A stretch of DNA of 55,083 nucleotides from a virus (taxonomy: Duplodnaviria; Heunggongvirae; Uroviricota; Caudoviricetes). Below are positions 20,647 through 27,455 of this stretch, one piece after another (position 1 is the stretch's first letter; each line of letters starts with the position of its first letter). The notes beneath the pieces were generated by a model. It was not told where the DNA came from. It made no database searches and worked only from the letters and a program-made list of their open reading frames with translations. Location of the stretch: positions 1 to 55,083 of the IMG/VR virus record IMGVR_UViG_2923307698_000002. One strand, written 5' to 3'. A program made the position numbers and the translations under genes.

Positions 20647-21300
20647 ATGAGTAATAAATATTGCCAGGAGCTGGTGGAACTGCGGAACAAACCAGCCCAT
20701 GAACTGAAGGAAGTGGGCGATCAGTGGCGCACGCCGGACAACATTTTCTGGGGAATTAACACCCTGTTTGGTCCGTTTGTTCTGGATCTGTTCACTGACG
20801 GTGATAACGCCAAATGTGCTGCGTATTACACGGCGGAAGACAACGCGCTGGCGCATGACTGGTCAGAACGCCTTGCGGAGCTTAAAGGTGCTGCCTTTGG
20901 AAATCCCCCATACAGCCGCGCCAGTCAGCATGAGGGGCAATACATCACCGGCATGCGTTACATCATGAAGCATGCCAGTGCCATGCGTGATAAGGGCGGG
21001 CGCTATGTTTTCCTGATCAAAGCTGCCACCAGCGAAGTGTGGTGGCCGGAAGATGCAGATCATATTGCTTTTATTCGCGGGCGTATTGGTTTTGAACTGC
21101 CTGCCTGGTTTATCCCGAAGGATGAGAAGCAGGTGCCGACAGGCGCTTTCTTCGCTGGTGCTATTGCTGTTTTCGACAAGACCTGGAAGGGACCGGCAAT
21201 CAGCTACATCGGGCGCGATGAACTTGAGGCATGTGGTGAGGCGTTTCTGGCGCAGGTTCGCCTGCAGGCGGAAAAGCTGGTCAGGGAGATGGCGGCATGA
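20647..21300 (+). CDS. phage Dam-like N6-adenine DNA methyltransferase
   Basis: Start at ATG 20647; NPPY motif (GNPPYS); IS629 lies 47 bp upstream. Confidence 0.75.
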   Translation: MSNKYCQELVELRNKPAHELKEVGDQWRTPDNIFWGINTLFGPFVLDLFTDGDNAKCAAYYTAEDNALAHDWSERLAELKGAAFGNPPYSRASQHEGQYITGMRYIMKHASAMRDKGGRYVFLIKAATSEVWWPEDADHIAFIRGRIGFELPAWFIPKDEKQVPTGAFFAGAIAVFDKTWKGPAISYIGRDELEACGEAFLAQVRLQAEKLVREMAA

Positions 21301-21623
21301 CGACGTTAACTCAATGCCAGCAGCAGGTGCTGGATATGCTGATTTCTTATCAGAAAGAGCGTGGCTTCCCGCCAACCAATCAGGAGGTGGCAACCATGCT
21401 GGGATACCGTTCGGTGAATGCAGCGGTGGAGCATCTTCGCGCACTGGAGAAAAAAGGCGTCATCACGATAAAGCGTGGTGTGGCCCGGGGGATCACGCTT
21501 CATACCGCGGTGAAGGACGACGACAGCAAGGCGGTCGGGATTATCCGCTCACTGCTTGCCGGTGAGGAAAACGCAAGGCTGCGTGCAACTCACTGGGTAC
21601 ATGAGAGAGGCCTGAAAGTATGA
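21297..21623 (+). CDS. LexA-like N-terminal DNA-binding domain protein
   Basis: 108 aa; winged-HTH region similar to the LexA DNA-binding domain; no peptidase domain. Confidence 0.5.
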   Translation: MTTLTQCQQQVLDMLISYQKERGFPPTNQEVATMLGYRSVNAAVEHLRALEKKGVITIKRGVARGITLHTAVKDDDSKAVGIIRSLLAGEENARLRATHWVHERGLKV

Positions 21624-22009
21624 AGCTGATCCTGCCTTTCCCGCCCAGCGTGAACACCTACTGGCGACACCCCAACAAAGGGGCATTTGCTGGTAAGAGC
21701 CTGATAAGCGCGGCGGGGCGAAAATTTCAGAGCGCGGCGTGCGCAGCAATAGTTGAGCAGTTACGTCGTCTGCCAAAACCAACGTCGGCACCTGCTTCAG
21801 TGGAGATCGTGTTGTTTCCTCCGGATAACCGGATCCGCGATCTGGACAACTATAACAAGGCGCTGTTTGACGCCCTGACCCACGCGGGTGTGTGGGAAGA
21901 CGACAGACAGGTGAAAAGAATGCTGGTGGAGTGGGGACCGGTTATCCCGAAAGGGAAGGTCGAGATCACTATCAGTAAGTATGAGAAACCGGCGGGTGCA
22001 GCCGCCTGA
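21620..22009 (+). CDS. rusA: Holliday junction resolvase RusA
   Basis: 129 aa starting MKLILPFPPSVNTYW; conserved D...D...D pattern. Confidence 0.8.
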   Translation: MKLILPFPPSVNTYWRHPNKGAFAGKSLISAAGRKFQSAACAAIVEQLRRLPKPTSAPASVEIVLFPPDNRIRDLDNYNKALFDALTHAGVWEDDRQVKRMLVEWGPVIPKGKVEITISKYEKPAGAAA

Positions 22010-22028
22010 TTAAGAGGAGAAACGAAGT

Positions 22029-22838
22029 ATGAATAATCTGATGGTTATTGATGGTATTGAAGTTCGTCGTGATGCTTATGGGCGTTACAGCCTGAACGAT
22101 CTGCACAGGGCAGCCGGGGGAGAACAAAAAAACCGCCCGAAATACTGGCTCTCCAATAAGCAAACCTGTGAATTGATTGAACAACTTTTCACCGAGGGTG
22201 GAATTCCGCCTCTGGAACAAAATCAACCAGTTAGCGTCATTAATGGCGGAAATAACCAGGGGACGTATGTCTGCAAAGAACTGGTGTATGCCTATGCAAT
22301 GTGGATCAGCCCGTCATTCCATCTGAAGGTGATCCGTACTTTCGATATGGTAACCAGCACACCGGAAAAATTATCCGGGCAGGCTGCTGACAAGATGCAG
22401 GCTGGCGTGATTCTGCTGGACTTTATGCGCCGGGAGTTAAACCTGTCTAACTCTTCAGTGCTTGGTGCCTGTCAGAAACTCCAGGAGGCTGTTGGCTTAC
22501 CGAATCTGGCACCGCGCTATGCCATTGATGCTCCTACTGACGCGCCTGATGGCTCAAGCCGCCCGACGCTGGCGCTGAGTGCACTGCTGAAGCAGTATGG
22601 TATCCGCCTGACGGCTAATCAGGCATATCACCAGATGGCGAAGCTGGGGATCGTTGAACAACGCGAACGATACAGCCGTACCGCAATTAACAACATTAAA
22701 AAATTCTGGTCGCTGACGGCGAAAGGCTGCATGTTCGGCAAGAACATCACCAGTCCTGCAAATCCGCGTGAGACGCAGCCGCATTTCTTCGAATCCCGAT
22801 TCCCTGAGCTGTTAAAGCTGCTCGATACCGTTCATTGA
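22029..22838 (+). CDS. KilA-N domain protein (antirepressor-like)
   Basis: N-terminal KilA-N-like region (IDGIEVR...YSLNDLHRAAG...KYWL). Confidence 0.6.
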   Translation: MNNLMVIDGIEVRRDAYGRYSLNDLHRAAGGEQKNRPKYWLSNKQTCELIEQLFTEGGIPPLEQNQPVSVINGGNNQGTYVCKELVYAYAMWISPSFHLKVIRTFDMVTSTPEKLSGQAADKMQAGVILLDFMRRELNLSNSSVLGACQKLQEAVGLPNLAPRYAIDAPTDAPDGSSRPTLALSALLKQYGIRLTANQAYHQMAKLGIVEQRERYSRTAINNIKKFWSLTAKGCMFGKNITSPANPRETQPHFFESRFPELLKLLDTVH

Positions 22839-22839
22839 G

Positions 22840-25773: not shown

Positions 25774-25799
25774 TTTTGCCTCAGTTTATTTTTAATTCT

Positions 25800-25927
25800 A
25801 TCCTGTAGACTTAAATTAACGTGAAAGAGATGAAAAATCACTAACGCGGTCCGCATTTTTTCATTTAGCATGTTAAGAGTGGTTACTTCGCCACACAACT
25901 TAAACCCGCCGCTGAGCGGTTTTTTTG
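25800..25927 (+). promoter_or_regulatory. putative late promoter pR'/qut region and tR'-like terminator
   Basis: Intergenic region with promoter-like elements and a short hairpin CCGC-tga-GCGG plus T7 at 25909-25926, upstream of the late genes. Confidence 0.3.
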
Positions 25928-26024
25928 TACCTGTAAACCTGGTGCAGTACAGTAAACACGCTGGTTGTCGTGAATACTGACTTTTTATCTTGCTGGCATT
26001 TTAGACAAGAGTTATTGGTATGTC

Positions 26025-26252
26025 ATGTTAACCAGAAGGGAAAAAGACATGCTAAAACAGCAAGATATGACAGAAACCGCCGCCGCAGTCCTTCATTTCT
26101 TACCTGCTGACAAGTGGGTAACGCCACGCATGATGACGAGAACTACCGGAGTAAGCGAAGCCCGGTGCCAGTTAATACTGACTCAGTTAGTTCTGGCGGG
26201 TCTGGCGAAGGATAACGGCGGGTACGGGAATAAATTCAGACGCTGCCAGTAA
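26025..26252 (+). CDS. small winged-helix-like protein (75 aa)
   Basis: ORF directly upstream of the methyltransferase; helix-rich, basic C-terminus. Confidence 0.4.
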   Translation: MLTRREKDMLKQQDMTETAAAVLHFLPADKWVTPRMMTRTTGVSEARCQLILTQLVLAGLAKDNGGYGNKFRRCQ

Positions 26253-26402
26253 TGGCGGTTTCCTGCTGTGAAAATGGGCGGCTGGTGGGTGTTGGTAGCA
26301 CCTGCCAGCCATTCGCTCATGCCTACTGGTCACAAGCGAACCACGGCCCACTGCTTTAGCGCAAAAGCAGAGTGAGCCTACCAGAGTTACGCTTACTGAT
26401 CC

Positions 26403-27455
26403 ATGAAAAATACTGTAAAAATAAACAGTGTTGATTTAATCAACGCTGATTGCCTGCATTTTATTCAGTCCCTGCCTGATGATTCCATTGACCTGATTGT
26501 TACCGATCCGCCTTACTTCAAGGTGAAACCCAACGGCTGGGACAATCAGTGGAAAGGGGACGAAGATTACCTTAAGTGGCTGGACCACTGTCTGGCCCAG
26601 TTCTGGCGGGTGTTGAAACCTGCCGGAAGCCTTTACCTGTTCTGTGGGCATCGCCTGGCATCTGATATTGAGATCATGATGCGTGAACGTTTCAACGTGC
26701 TTAACCATATCATCTGGGCGAAGCCGTCCGGACGTTGGAATGGGTGTAATAAAGAAAGTCTGCGCGCATATTTTCCTGCCACAGAGCGCGTTCTGTTTGC
26801 TGAACATTACCAGGGGCCATATCGCGGCAAAAGTGACGGCTATGCGGCAAAAGAAAGGGAACTCAAACAGCACATAATGGCACCGCTGATATCGTATTTC
26901 AGGGATGCTCGTGCCGAACTGGGTATAACGGCAAAACAAATTGCCGAAGCCACAGGTAAGAAAAATATGGTTTCCCACTGGTTTGGTGCCAGTCAGTGGC
27001 AGTTGCCGAATGAGGCTGACTATCGGAAGTTACAGGCACTGTTTTCCCGTATAGCGGCAGAGAAGTTTCAGGAACAACAACTGGAACAACCACACCACCA
27101 ACTGGTGGCATCTTATGATTCACTGAATCGTAAATATTCTGAATTGCTGGATGAGTTTAAATCTCTCCGGCGCTATTTCTCCGTATCAGTCTCCGTGCCT
27201 TATACCGATGTCTGGATGCATAAACCCGTTCAGTTCTACCCGGGTAAACATCCGTGTGAGAAACCGGCGGATATGCTCAGGCAAATAATCAATGCCAGTA
27301 GTCGACCTGGTGATCTGGTTGCTGATTTTTTTATGGGATCCGGTTCCACAATAAAAGCAGCAATGGCGTTGGGGCGTCGGGCCTTAGGTGTTGAGCTTGA
27401 GTCAGAGCGGTTTAACCAGACAGTGAAAGAGATAAACGAGCTGGTGGGGAAATAA
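26403..27455 (+). CDS. DNA methyltransferase (beta-class N6A/N4C amino-MTase)
   Basis: DPPY motif near N-terminus (IVTDPPYF) and SAM-binding-like FMGSGST near C-terminus. Confidence 0.75.

What the first reader, a model, noticed from the sequence alone, without database searches (positions are those of the whole stretch)
20647..27455. Two DNA amino-methyltransferases in one prophage, the second preceded by a small winged-helix gene
One is a Dam-like enzyme with NPPY in the early-right region, the other a DPPY enzyme just upstream of the holin with a 75-aa wHTH-like ORF in front of it. Orphan phage methyltransferases often protect against host restriction, and the small upstream gene could be a controller-type regulator.
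Basis: partly seen in the sequence, partly recalled or inferred. Interest (0 to 1): 0.4.

Follow-up and report, generated by a model that had tools for sequence, protein, structure and literature searches.

The report
Phage methylases behind a conserved RNA leader
The two prophage DNA methylases are real but ordinary members of known families; the new feature is a 129-base structured RNA leader with two alternative folds, directly in front of the second (M.EcoGII-like) methylase, found in about half of complete E. coli genomes and absent from Rfam.

Summary
Observation confirmed. Window 20647-21300 encodes a phage Dam-family N6-adenine methylase with an NPPY motif. Window 26403-27455 encodes a beta-class DPPY methylase just upstream of the holin. 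It is 81% identical to the non-specific adenine methylase M.EcoGII and 100% identical to the methylase of phages cdtI and Ayreon. Both are orphans, and 15 of 42 related loci carry both.

The small upstream gene is real but probably 67 aa (start 26049). It is a minimal winged helix. It is not a controller (C) protein: no Xre-type fold, no palindrome upstream, no restriction gene, and it is separable from the methylase.

The element that always accompanies the methylase is the spacer 26274-26402. It recurs in lambdoid, N15-like and VHML-like phages of Enterobacterales, Aeromonas and Vibrio, always ending at the start codon of the methylase or of a Com-like gene placed before it. It has no Rfam match and occurs in 2,688 of 5,426 complete E. 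coli genomes.

Six segments of the spacer pair in two mutually exclusive ways, and covariation supports both. One fold buries the bases just upstream of the ATG, which has no Shine-Dalgarno sequence.

Best reading: a late, Q-dependent, promiscuous anti-restriction methylase whose translation is set by a bistable leader, analogous to Mu com/mom. The trigger is unknown.

The parts
19292..20599 (-). IS3 element (context). It is inserted in the 3' end of the yfdN/PerC-like gene, 47 bp upstream of the Dam-like ATG, with a GTA target duplication.
   Evidence: Comparison of the window with the uninterrupted locus L001. IS3 orfA/orfB ORFs. ALIL frameshift pseudoknot at 20148-20264.
20647..21300 (+). 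Methylase 1: phage Dam-family N6-adenine methylase (NPPY) in the early-right operon, followed by LexA-like and RusA genes.
   Evidence: PF05869 E 1e-45. TIGR01712 255 bits. PADLOC MTase_II. 31% identity to VT2-Sakai orf32, also PF05869.
23850..24215 (+). Q antiterminator (PF06530 type). Inferred to license the late operon that contains methylase 2.
   Evidence: PF06530 E 4e-53. RefSeq annotation in L001.
25871..25927 (+). Conserved late-promoter-proximal block ending in an intrinsic terminator (tR'-like; stem 25908-25920 plus a T run).
   Evidence: Invariant block shared with phiP27, 1720a-02 and Stx2a_1447 directly downstream of Q or of cassettes inserted after Q. Terminator scan. Annotated as a terminator in phage Ayreon. 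The promoter itself was not mapped.
26049..26252 (+). Small 67-aa winged-helix protein, the first ORF after tR' (phrog_331, unknown function).
   Evidence: Start-codon and SD conservation. phrog_331 E 3e-26. AF2 pLDDT 87.6 with an H-H-H-wing layout. Foldseek best TM 0.81-0.82 to Zalpha; also SelB winged helix, TrmBL2 and IclR. hhalign probability 76-80% to N15 gp51 and PY54 ORF59.
26243..26258 (+). Hairpin overlapping the stop codon of the small ORF. It is a strong terminator-like hairpin in Stx-phage variants and weak in this window.
   Evidence: Read from the sequence. A hairpin is present in all variants, including those without the small ORF.
26274..26402 (+). Conserved structured leader RNA. 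Segments: a 26274-26279; P2 hairpin 26280-26310; b 26312-26321; c 26328-26341; d 26345-26351; P4 hairpin 26351-26370; e 26371-26378; f 26386-26401. Fold I pairs a:d, b:c, e:f. Fold II pairs a:b, c:f, d:e.
   Evidence: More conserved than the neighbouring ORF. Fold energy z -3.08. Covariation on the MAFFT alignment A3 and on the covariance-model alignment A6. Covariance model R1 gives a single + strand hit in the window, E 3e-35. No Rfam family.
26403..27455 (+). Methylase 2: M.EcoGII-family beta-class N6-adenine methylase (DPPY ... FxGxG).
   Evidence: PF01555 E 2e-42. 81% identity to M.EcoGII and 89% to Anc291. 100% identity to the cdtI and Ayreon methylase and 99.7% to that of mEp460.
27462..27488 (+). 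Terminator-like hairpin between the methylase and the holin.
   Evidence: Terminator scan. Annotated as a terminator in phage Ayreon.
27523..28693 (+). Lysis cassette (S21-like holin, SAR-type endolysin, Rz) downstream in the same late operon.
   Evidence: ORFs. RefSeq names essD, rrrD and lysis protein in L001.

Best explanation
The locus belongs to a lambdoid E. coli prophage with two orphan N6-adenine methylases.

(1) A Dam-family enzyme lies in the early-right operon. Its specificity is unknown; GATC is a guess from distant relatives.

(2) An M.EcoGII-family enzyme is the second ORF of the late operon. It lies between the tR'-like terminator and the holin, so it should be made only when Q-modified RNA polymerase reads through. 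This timing is inferred from gene order. By homology it methylates adenine in almost any sequence context, protecting progeny DNA from many restriction enzymes. It is toxic if expressed at the wrong time.

Its translation is set by a 129-nt leader (26274-26402) that can adopt two mutually exclusive folds.
- Fold II (a:b, c:f, d:e) consists only of nested local helices, so it should form first during transcription. It pairs bases -15 to -3 before the ATG.
- Fold I is a three-way junction (P1/P2/P3) plus two hairpins. It leaves GAUCC-AUG free.
- There is no Shine-Dalgarno sequence within normal distance of the ATG.

The leader therefore most likely keeps methylase synthesis low or conditional. 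The logic resembles Mu com/mom and the com plus non-specific-methylase modules of Mu-like prophages. The small gene is a 67-aa winged-helix protein, not a C protein. It may be an accessory factor of this module, but the leader does not require it.

Shown: gene identities, gene order, conservation, covariation and the alternative pairings. Inferred: Q dependence, non-specific activity, translational control and its direction.
For: Enzyme identities. Experimental properties of M.EcoGII and Anc291: PMC5778455, PMC11551740. M.EcoGI and its 99% identical homolog M.EcoMV are reported silent in lysogens: PMC4659465.

Late-operon placement: the Q, conserved block/terminator, small ORF, leader, methylase, terminator, holin order is seen in the window. 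It is also seen in phiP27, 1720a-02, Ayreon, phiNP, Stx2a_1447, Morganella, Providencia and Hafnia phages.

Leader linkage:
- It ends 0-2 nt before the methylase ATG in about 125 of 134 loci and lies 128-134 nt upstream of it in all genuine genome hits.
- All hits are on the methylase strand.
- It is present in 2,688 of 5,426 complete E. coli genomes.
- Covariance model R1, built only from the initial leader set (alignment A3: mostly Enterobacterales, one Plesiomonas), also finds it before methylase homologs of 48-65% identity. These are in PY54, phiKO2, N15, PhiR46_1, Serratia OS31, Vibrio MAR, Vibrio Val-yong3 and Aeromonas PhAER-2/phiARM81ld (E 5e-12 to 3e-3).

Structure:
- Fold I: 82.3% of cells paired, 35 of 41 pairs with double changes, covariation 0.193 against at most 0.079 when partners are slid, 0 of 500 shuffles on all five measures.
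- Fold II, tested on the alignment fitted to fold I: 83.3% paired, 28 of 43 pairs, 0.165 against at most 0.079, 0 of 500.
- The unfitted MAFFT alignment gives the same picture. For example, one P3 pair reads CG 27, AU 16, UA 16, UG 5.
- In Aeromonas, segment a changes to CGUGGC and both partners b and d change to GCCACG.
- The two folds lie within 3 kcal/mol of each other in 49 of 74 representatives.

Precedent for translational control of this enzyme family: a Com-type zinc-ribbon ORF (PF10122, E 1.6e-6) sits between the leader and the methylase in Aeromonas. A 38-aa zinc-ribbon ORF sits there in Vibrio Val-yong3. com-like genes precede the non-specific methylases Hia5 and Hin1523 (PMC3299994).
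Against: - No expression, probing or methylome data were available. The direction of control, and even whether control is translational, is inferred from anatomy.
- Both folds leave part of the ribosome-binding region structured, so it is not clear which fold is the 'on' state.
- Strand assignment from wobble pairs is only modest. Fold II pairs 83.9% of cells on the + strand and 80.2% if read on the - strand. Fold I as drawn is slightly better on the - strand (83.6% against 81.3%), because of an A.C internal loop in P3.
- Many sequences are closely related, so cell counts overstate the number of independent events.
- P5 is poorly kept in distant members.
- The non-specific activity of this particular enzyme (81% identity to M.EcoGII) is untested, as is the specificity of the Dam-like enzyme (31% identity to a GATC enzyme).
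- In this window an IS3 insertion upstream may prevent Q expression altogether.
Confidence: 0.6

Rival explanations
1. The small winged-helix protein works like Mu Com. It would be a translational activator that binds the leader RNA and shifts it from the closed fold to the open fold, so the methylase is made only after the first late ORF has been translated.
For: - Its position as the first ORF of the same transcript, 21 nt upstream of the leader.
- Synteny of a remotely similar winged-helix ORF (N15 gp51, PY54 ORF59; hhalign probability 76-80%) with the leader and methylase in N15-like phages.
- In Aeromonas and Vibrio relatives a Com-like zinc-ribbon gene accompanies the same leader and methylase.
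- The best structural matches include RNA-binding winged helices (Zalpha, SelB).
Against: - The leader and methylase persist unchanged without this ORF in Eeyore-type and several genome loci.
- The ORF persists where the methylase is lost.
- In N15-like phages the winged-helix gene lies upstream of the late promoter, on another transcript.
- It has no zinc ribbon.
- The fold matches have weak E-values (5e-3 or worse).
Confidence: 0.2
2. The leader is an autoregulatory operator. The methylase binds single-stranded nucleic acid and RNA. It would bind, or even methylate, its own leader and shut off further translation, capping enzyme levels.
For: - The leader is linked to the methylase family and to nothing else.
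- M.EcoGII acts on ssDNA and RNA (PMC5778455).
- Uncontrolled expression is toxic (PMC5778455).
Against: - In Aeromonas and Vibrio Val-yong3 the leader precedes the Com-like gene, not the methylase itself.
- M.EcoGII has no sequence preference that would explain a specific operator.
- Its RNA activity is about 100-fold lower than its DNA activity (PMC11551740, Table S3).
Confidence: 0.15
3. The leader is a metabolite riboswitch of a new class, for example one sensing SAM or SAH. The P1/P2/P3 junction would be the aptamer and segments c to f the expression platform.
For: - A three-way junction with invariant nucleotides, plus mutually exclusive pairings that reach the start region.
- The downstream gene uses SAM.
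Against: - No similarity to any riboswitch family in Rfam.
- The invariant bases are largely explained by each segment having two pairing partners.
- No ligand test is possible with these tools.
- The phage late context gives no obvious need for metabolite sensing.
Confidence: 0.1
4. One reading: the small gene is a C-protein-like transcriptional controller of the methylase.
For: - It is a small predicted DNA-binding protein encoded upstream of a methylase.
- Some sources name relatives TrmB or IscR family regulators.
Against: - No HTH_3/Xre fold.
- No inverted repeat upstream.
- No restriction gene.
- No promoter-like site between it and the methylase.
- It is separable from the methylase.
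Confidence: 0.06
5. The conserved spacer has no RNA function. It is conserved as DNA (a recombination linker between phage modules, or a protein-binding site), or it encodes a small peptide.
For: - Mosaic lambdoid phages do share boundary sequences.
- P4 is palindromic in some variants.
- A 33-codon ORF starts at 26274 in the window.
Against: - Compensatory changes occur in long-range helices.
- Helices P2 and P3 have unrelated sequences in N15, phiKO2 and Vibrio leaders yet keep the same architecture.
- G.U pairs are concentrated in P1', P5 and P7.
- The ORF is cut by an in-frame TAG after 7 codons in most variants, and indels shift its frame.
Confidence: 0.05

Closest known systems
M.EcoGII / M.EcoGI (non-specific adenine methylases of E. 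coli O104:H4 prophages)
   Same: - Beta-class motif order, about 350 aa, 81% identity.
- The 1720a-02 enzyme, 93% identical to M.EcoGII, has the same small ORF, leader and methylase layout downstream of Q.
- M.EcoGI and its homolog M.EcoMV are reported silent in lysogens (PMC4659465); M.EcoGII is reported as not expressed in its host (PMC5778455).
   Different: - The activity of this allele is untested.
- None of the papers on these enzymes that were read here mention a leader or an upstream regulator.
Phage Mu com-mom, and com plus Hia5/Hin1523/Nma1821 modules of Mu-like prophages
   Same: - A promiscuous, toxic adenine-modifying enzyme made late.
- A small nucleic-acid-binding protein gene just upstream on the same mRNA.
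- An mRNA structure that hides the start region (PMC6483171, PMC3299994).
- Relatives of this very module in Aeromonas and Vibrio carry a Com-like gene.
   Different: - The window has no zinc-ribbon Com.
- The upstream protein is a winged helix and does not overlap the methylase gene.
- The RNA element is much larger (129 nt), with a closed cycle of six alternatively pairing segments rather than one inhibitory stem.
C (controller) proteins of type II restriction-modification systems
   Same: A small DNA-binding protein gene upstream of a methylase gene.
   Different: Different fold, no C-box, no endonuclease, no obligate linkage.
Phage Dam family PF05869 (T1 Dam, HP1 Dam, M.EcoVT2Dam)
   Same: Methylase 1 scores far above the family cutoffs, has NPPY, and lies in the nin-like early-right region, as in VT2-Sakai.
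   Different: It is only 31% identical to the VT2 enzyme, which PMC6602927 reports as GATC-specific. Specificity cannot be transferred at that distance.
Riboswitches and attenuator leaders (general class of cis-acting mRNA switches)
   Same: A conserved multi-helix 5' domain with mutually exclusive pairings that extend to the translation start.
   Different: No known family matches. No ligand or effector has been identified. It has no terminator-type expression platform.

Membership tests
M.EcoGII-family beta-class N6-adenine methylase | PF01555 catalytic domain with motif IV (DPPY) before motif I (FxGxG). | tested here: met
   PF01555 E 2e-42, covering residues 29-341. DPPY at residues 34-37 and FMGSG at 310-314.
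M.EcoGII-family beta-class N6-adenine methylase | Close full-length sequence similarity to M.EcoGII. | tested here: met
   81% identity over 349 aa to M.EcoGII and 89% to Anc291. The reference sequences were taken from machine-read supplement text of PMC11551740 and contain a few reading errors.
M.EcoGII-family beta-class N6-adenine methylase | Methylation of adenine without sequence specificity. | not testable with these tools
   Needs methylome or biochemical data.
Phage Dam family (PF05869 / TIGR01712) | Family profile match above the curated cutoff, plus the (D/N)PPY motif. | tested here: met
   155.9 bits against a cutoff of 28.1; 255.5 bits against 97.05; motif NPPY.
Phage Dam family (PF05869 / TIGR01712) | GATC specificity. 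| not testable with these tools
   Only 31% identity to the VT2-Sakai enzyme.
C (controller) protein of restriction-modification systems | Xre-type (HTH_3) helix-turn-helix fold. | tested here: not met
   No HTH_3 hit. Only weak winged-helix families match. The model is a winged helix.
C (controller) protein of restriction-modification systems | Palindromic C-box operator upstream of its own gene. | tested here: not met
   No inverted repeat of 8 or more bases in 25930-26060.
C (controller) protein of restriction-modification systems | A linked restriction endonuclease gene. | tested here: not met
   The neighbours are Q, a minus-strand cassette, the holin and the endolysin.
Mu Com translational activator | Four-cysteine zinc ribbon (PF10122). 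| tested here: not met
   The window ORF has no CxxC pairs and no PF10122 hit. The Aeromonas ORF at the equivalent locus does match PF10122.
Mu Com translational activator | Binds the target mRNA leader and opens an inhibitory stem. | not testable with these tools
   Needs binding and reporter assays.
Any Rfam family (release 15) | Covariance-model match to 26253-26402. | tested here: not met
   No hit at the gathering threshold in the whole window. No hit with E up to 10 overlapping the leader.
Riboswitch-like cis-regulatory switch | Conserved structure with covariation, and mutually exclusive alternative pairings that reach the start region. | tested here: met
Riboswitch-like cis-regulatory switch | A specific effector (ligand or protein) that shifts the equilibrium. 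| not testable with these tools
   None identified.

The most novel reading that the evidence does not exclude
The 129-nt element is a new, very widespread family of bistable RNA switch. It occurs in about half of complete E. coli genomes and in phages of Enterobacterales, Aeromonas and Vibrio. It would respond to an effector, either the winged-helix protein, the methylase itself, or a metabolite such as SAM. In doing so it would gate translation of a promiscuous m6A writer, or of the Com-like activator placed before it, in the late operon of temperate phages.
Probability: 0.35. Interest if true: 0.75.

Novelty: new variant of a known kind. Interest (0 to 1): 0.55.

Why it matters
The methylases themselves add little. 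They are exact or near-exact copies of annotated phage genes from characterised families.

The leader is different. It is a covariation-supported RNA structure with two alternative folds. It precedes the M.EcoGII family, whose enzymes are widely used as tools for chromatin and RNA mapping. It is present in thousands of sequenced genomes, and I found no Rfam family or paper describing it.

If it is a regulated switch, it would explain how temperate phages carry a methylase that is toxic to the host. It would give a second solution, alongside Mu com/mom, to timing a blanket anti-restriction modification. It would also offer a compact natural off-switch for expressing these enzymes. Several published annotations also need correcting: ORFs have been called over the leader, and the N15 gene 52 start is placed too far downstream.

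Tried and rejected
- **Rfam.** Gathering thresholds on the whole window and a permissive search on 25700-26600 found nothing on the leader. No tRNA or tmRNA gene was found.
- **Literature.** A search for two leader sequence strings gave 0 papers. The Pas, StxS and AgvB prophage sRNA papers describe other elements and do not mention the methylase.
- **RNAalifold on a plain MAFFT alignment (A2).** It recovered only P1, part of P2 and fragments, because indels in the loops misalign the columns. It was replaced by explicit pair counting and a covariance-model alignment.
- **Constrained folding with column-enforced pairs.** This gave unreliable energies, on average 7.9 kcal above the MFE, for the same reason. 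It was replaced by directional constraints on segment b.
- **Peptide-coding reading of the leader.** Rejected, because stops and frame shifts occur in most variants.
- **Minus-strand RNA reading.** Not favoured. All covariance-model hits are on the methylase strand, the hairpin with a T run upstream is + oriented, and G.U pairs occur in P1', P5 and P7. Pair counts alone do not exclude it.
- **C-box search.** Negative.
- **phiARM81ld p54 as a winged-helix homolog.** Rejected.
- **Solved structures.** The PDB sequence search found no solved relative of the Dam-like enzyme and only distant beta-class relatives of methylase 2.

Full report
**Context.** The window is a lambdoid prophage of E. coli. 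The region 20600-28300 is 100% identical to prophages in strains such as O25b:H4. There RefSeq annotates, in order:
- yfdN/PerC, phage N-6-adenine-methyltransferase, LexA-like, RusA, KilA-N, DUF968 and Q;
- two minus-strand hypothetical genes;
- a 67-aa hypothetical protein, DNA-methyltransferase, essD, rrrD and Rz.

**Methylase 1 (20647-21300).**
- It is a 217-aa protein with an NPPY motif.
- It matches PF05869 (E 1e-45) and TIGR01712 well above their cutoffs.
- The enzyme of phage VT2-Sakai at the comparable nin-region position belongs to the same Pfam family. PMC6602927 lists it as M.EcoVT2Dam with GATC specificity. It is only 31% identical to methylase 1, so GATC is a guess, not a result.
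- In this window an IS3 copy (19292-20599, GTA duplication) sits 47 bp upstream, inside the preceding gene. The ORF is intact, but it and everything downstream, including Q, are separated from the early promoter by 1.3 kb of oppositely oriented IS.

**Methylase 2 (26403-27455).**
- It is a beta-class enzyme (DPPY ... FxGxG; PF01555 E 2e-42).
- It is 100% identical to the methylase of phages cdtI and Ayreon, 99.7% to that of mEp460 and 98% to SfV orf48.
- It is 81% identical to M.EcoGII and 89% identical to the reconstructed ancestor Anc291.
- M.EcoGII methylates adenine in any context. It blocks many restriction enzymes, is toxic when expressed constitutively, and is not expressed in its lysogen (PMC5778455). 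M.EcoGI and its homolog M.EcoMV were likewise silent in lysogens (PMC4659465). Anc291 is also largely non-site-specific (PMC11551740).
- The gene lies after a conserved block that ends in an intrinsic terminator (25908-25927), and before a second terminator-like hairpin (27462-27488) and the holin. Phage Ayreon carries the same terminators in its annotation.
- I infer that it is a late, Q-dependent gene.
- The two-methylase arrangement is common: 15 of 42 related loci with enough upstream sequence have both.

**The small gene.**
- The conserved start is 26049 (67 aa), not 26025.
- It belongs to phrog_331, of unknown function, and has no Pfam hit above threshold. Relatives hit TrmB, DprA_WH and MarR weakly.
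- An AlphaFold2 model built with 22 homologs is confident (pLDDT 87.6) and shows a minimal winged helix.
- The best structural matches by TM-score are Zalpha domains, followed by eS25, the SelB RNA-binding winged helix, TrmBL2 and IclR N-terminal domains. All have weak E-values.
- It is not a C protein: wrong fold, no upstream palindrome and no restriction gene.
- It evolves fast, with about 50% identity where the methylase keeps 81%.
- It is missing from Eeyore-type loci that keep the methylase. It remains where the methylase has been replaced, as in phiSTEC1575-Stx2k.
- A remotely similar winged-helix ORF (N15 gp51, PY54 ORF59; hhalign probability 76-80%) sits just upstream of the late promoter, leader and methylase in N15-like phages. 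Some long-term association therefore exists.

**The unexpected feature: the leader.** Aligning the region upstream of the methylase from eight phages showed that the 150-nt spacer is much better conserved than the small ORF. It persists where that ORF is absent.

A scan of one genome per species returned 61 stretches, of which about 51 are genuine.

Genuine copies come from Escherichia, Citrobacter, Enterobacter, Klebsiella, Kosakonia, Kluyvera, Buttiauxella, Salmonella, Erwinia, Mixta, Rosenbergiella, Mangrovibacter, Providencia, Morganella, Hafnia and Plesiomonas.

In every genuine complete case the element starts 128-134 nt before, and ends at, the start codon of a methylase homolog. Blastn finds it in 2,688 of 5,426 complete E. 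coli genomes, with up to 8 copies each.

Rfam has no match, even at E up to 10. A full-text search for its sequence found nothing.

**Structure of the leader.** The + strand folds with z = -3.08. Individual homologs fold into one of two architectures. These can be described with six segments, a to f, plus two constant hairpins, P2 and P4.
- Fold I pairs a:d (P1), b:c (P3) and e:f (P5). This gives a three-way junction followed by two hairpins.
- Fold II pairs a:b (P1'), d:e (P6) and c:f (P7). This gives two nested domains.
- Each segment thus has two partners. This explains why the stems are almost invariant in sequence.

Pair counting on 74 sequences of at most 98% identity, aligned without reference to structure:

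| Fold | Cells paired | Paired when partners slid by 1-3 columns | Shuffles reaching observed covariation |
|---|---|---|---|
| I | 81.3% | 28-46% | 0 of 500 |
| II | 83.9% | 28-46% | 0 of 500 |

Individual pairs show classic covariation. One P3 pair reads CG 27, AU 16, UA 16, UG 5. P7 pairs switch from AU to GC in the Providencia and Plesiomonas groups.

A covariance model built from these sequences then detected the element in phages that my pattern search had missed. These are PY54, phiKO2, N15, PhiR46_1, Serratia OS31, Vibrio MAR, Vibrio Val-yong3 and Aeromonas PhAER-2/phiARM81ld. E-values ranged from 5e-12 to 3e-3, and all hits were on the methylase strand. In these phages P2 and P3 have unrelated sequences but the same architecture.

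In Aeromonas, segment a has become CGUGGC while both of its partners have become GCCACG. On the resulting 82-sequence alignment:

| Fold | Cells paired | Pairs with compensatory changes | Covariation score | Score when slid |
|---|---|---|---|---|
| I | 82.3% | 35 of 41 | 0.193 | at most 0.079 |
| II (alignment fitted to fold I) | 83.3% | 28 of 43 | 0.165 | at most 0.079 |

All five measures beat all 500 shuffles for both folds.

When segment b is allowed to pair only downstream or only upstream, the two fold classes lie within 3 kcal/mol in 49 of 74 sequences, with a mean difference of 1.9 in favour of fold II.

**Caveats.**
- Many sequences are related, so cell counts are not counts of independent events.
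- The covariance-model alignment leans towards fold I.
- Wobble-pair statistics favour the + strand only modestly.

**How it probably works.** The methylase ATG has no Shine-Dalgarno sequence. The nearest purine-rich run (AGAG) lies at -22 to -19. In Serratia OS31 an AAGGG lies at -11 to -7, and in Vibrio MAR an AGGAAG lies at normal distance.

Fold II pairs -15 to -3, including the conserved GAUC, with segment c. Because all its helices are local and nested, it should form first during transcription. Fold I leaves the last seven bases and the AUG free, next to the P5 hairpin.

I therefore read the element as a translational gate for a toxic enzyme. The effector, if any, is unknown.

Two independent lineages of the same module have inserted a Com-type zinc-ribbon gene between the leader and the methylase. 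In Aeromonas this ORF matches PF10122 (E 1.6e-6). It is followed by a hairpin that covers the methylase GGAG. Com-like genes are also known upstream of the non-specific methylases Hia5 and Hin1523 (PMC3299994), and Com activates mom translation by binding its mRNA (PMC6483171). This supports the idea that post-transcriptional control is the norm for promiscuous adenine modifiers.

**Verdict.**
- The anti-restriction interpretation is reasonable and already known for this family.
- The controller-protein idea is not supported.
- The part worth following up is the leader RNA.

Noticed in passing
window 19292-20599 (-): An IS3 copy with a GTA target duplication interrupts the yfdN/PerC-like gene 47 bp before the Dam-like ATG. 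It lies between the early promoter and every downstream gene, including Q, so this prophage copy may be impaired in late gene expression. Its ALIL frameshift pseudoknot is the Rfam hit at 20148-20264.
   Followed up: partly
window 24234-25773 (-): A low-GC (about 40%) three-gene minus-strand cassette is inserted between Q and the late-promoter block. The 287-aa protein matches the PADLOC phage-defence candidate PDC-S42 (E 1e-32) and NCBIfam LAPAL_fam (E 3e-61). The 143-aa and 87-aa partners look membrane-associated and have no family. Other phages carry different cassettes at this spot (phiP27 L22; two minus-strand genes in Stx2a_1447).
   Followed up: partly
window 52538-52736 (+): Rfam family IS009 (RF02111) matches at 208.9 bits near the right end of the window.
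   Followed up: no
window 26004-26025: The block GACAAGAGTTATTGGTATGTCA, between tR' and the small ORF, is almost invariant in four phages with different Q-proximal cassettes (one A/G position). Its function is unknown. It may be part of the small ORF's 5' UTR.
   Followed up: no
L196 1362-1577; L203 563-; L202 562-678: Aeromonas phages phiARM81ld and PhAER-2 and Vibrio phage Val-yong3 carry a Com-like zinc-ribbon ORF between the leader and the methylase homolog. In Aeromonas a hairpin (CUCCGAGU/ACUCGGAG) covers the methylase GGAG, as in Mu mom.
   Followed up: partly
L197 1374-1735; L205 496-654; L008 3365-3457: Probable annotation errors in public records. The N15 gene 52 start is placed about 230 nt too far downstream, since the tblastn match and the leader end at 1501-1503. 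MAR_56A and a small Eeyore ORF are called over the leader RNA.
   Followed up: partly
L132 2999-3049; L026, L067, L093, L113: These are truncated modules. The small ORF and the first 50 nt or so of the leader (the P2 hairpin) remain, but the methylase is replaced, for example by an HTH-domain gene in phiSTEC1575-Stx2k.
   Followed up: partly
L151, L167, L170, L172: Records titled Chryseobacterium, Geobacteraceae MAG, Bacillus MAG and Vagococcus carry a typical enterobacterial leader and methylase module (methylase 80-90% identical). These are probably contaminated or misbinned contigs.
   Followed up: no
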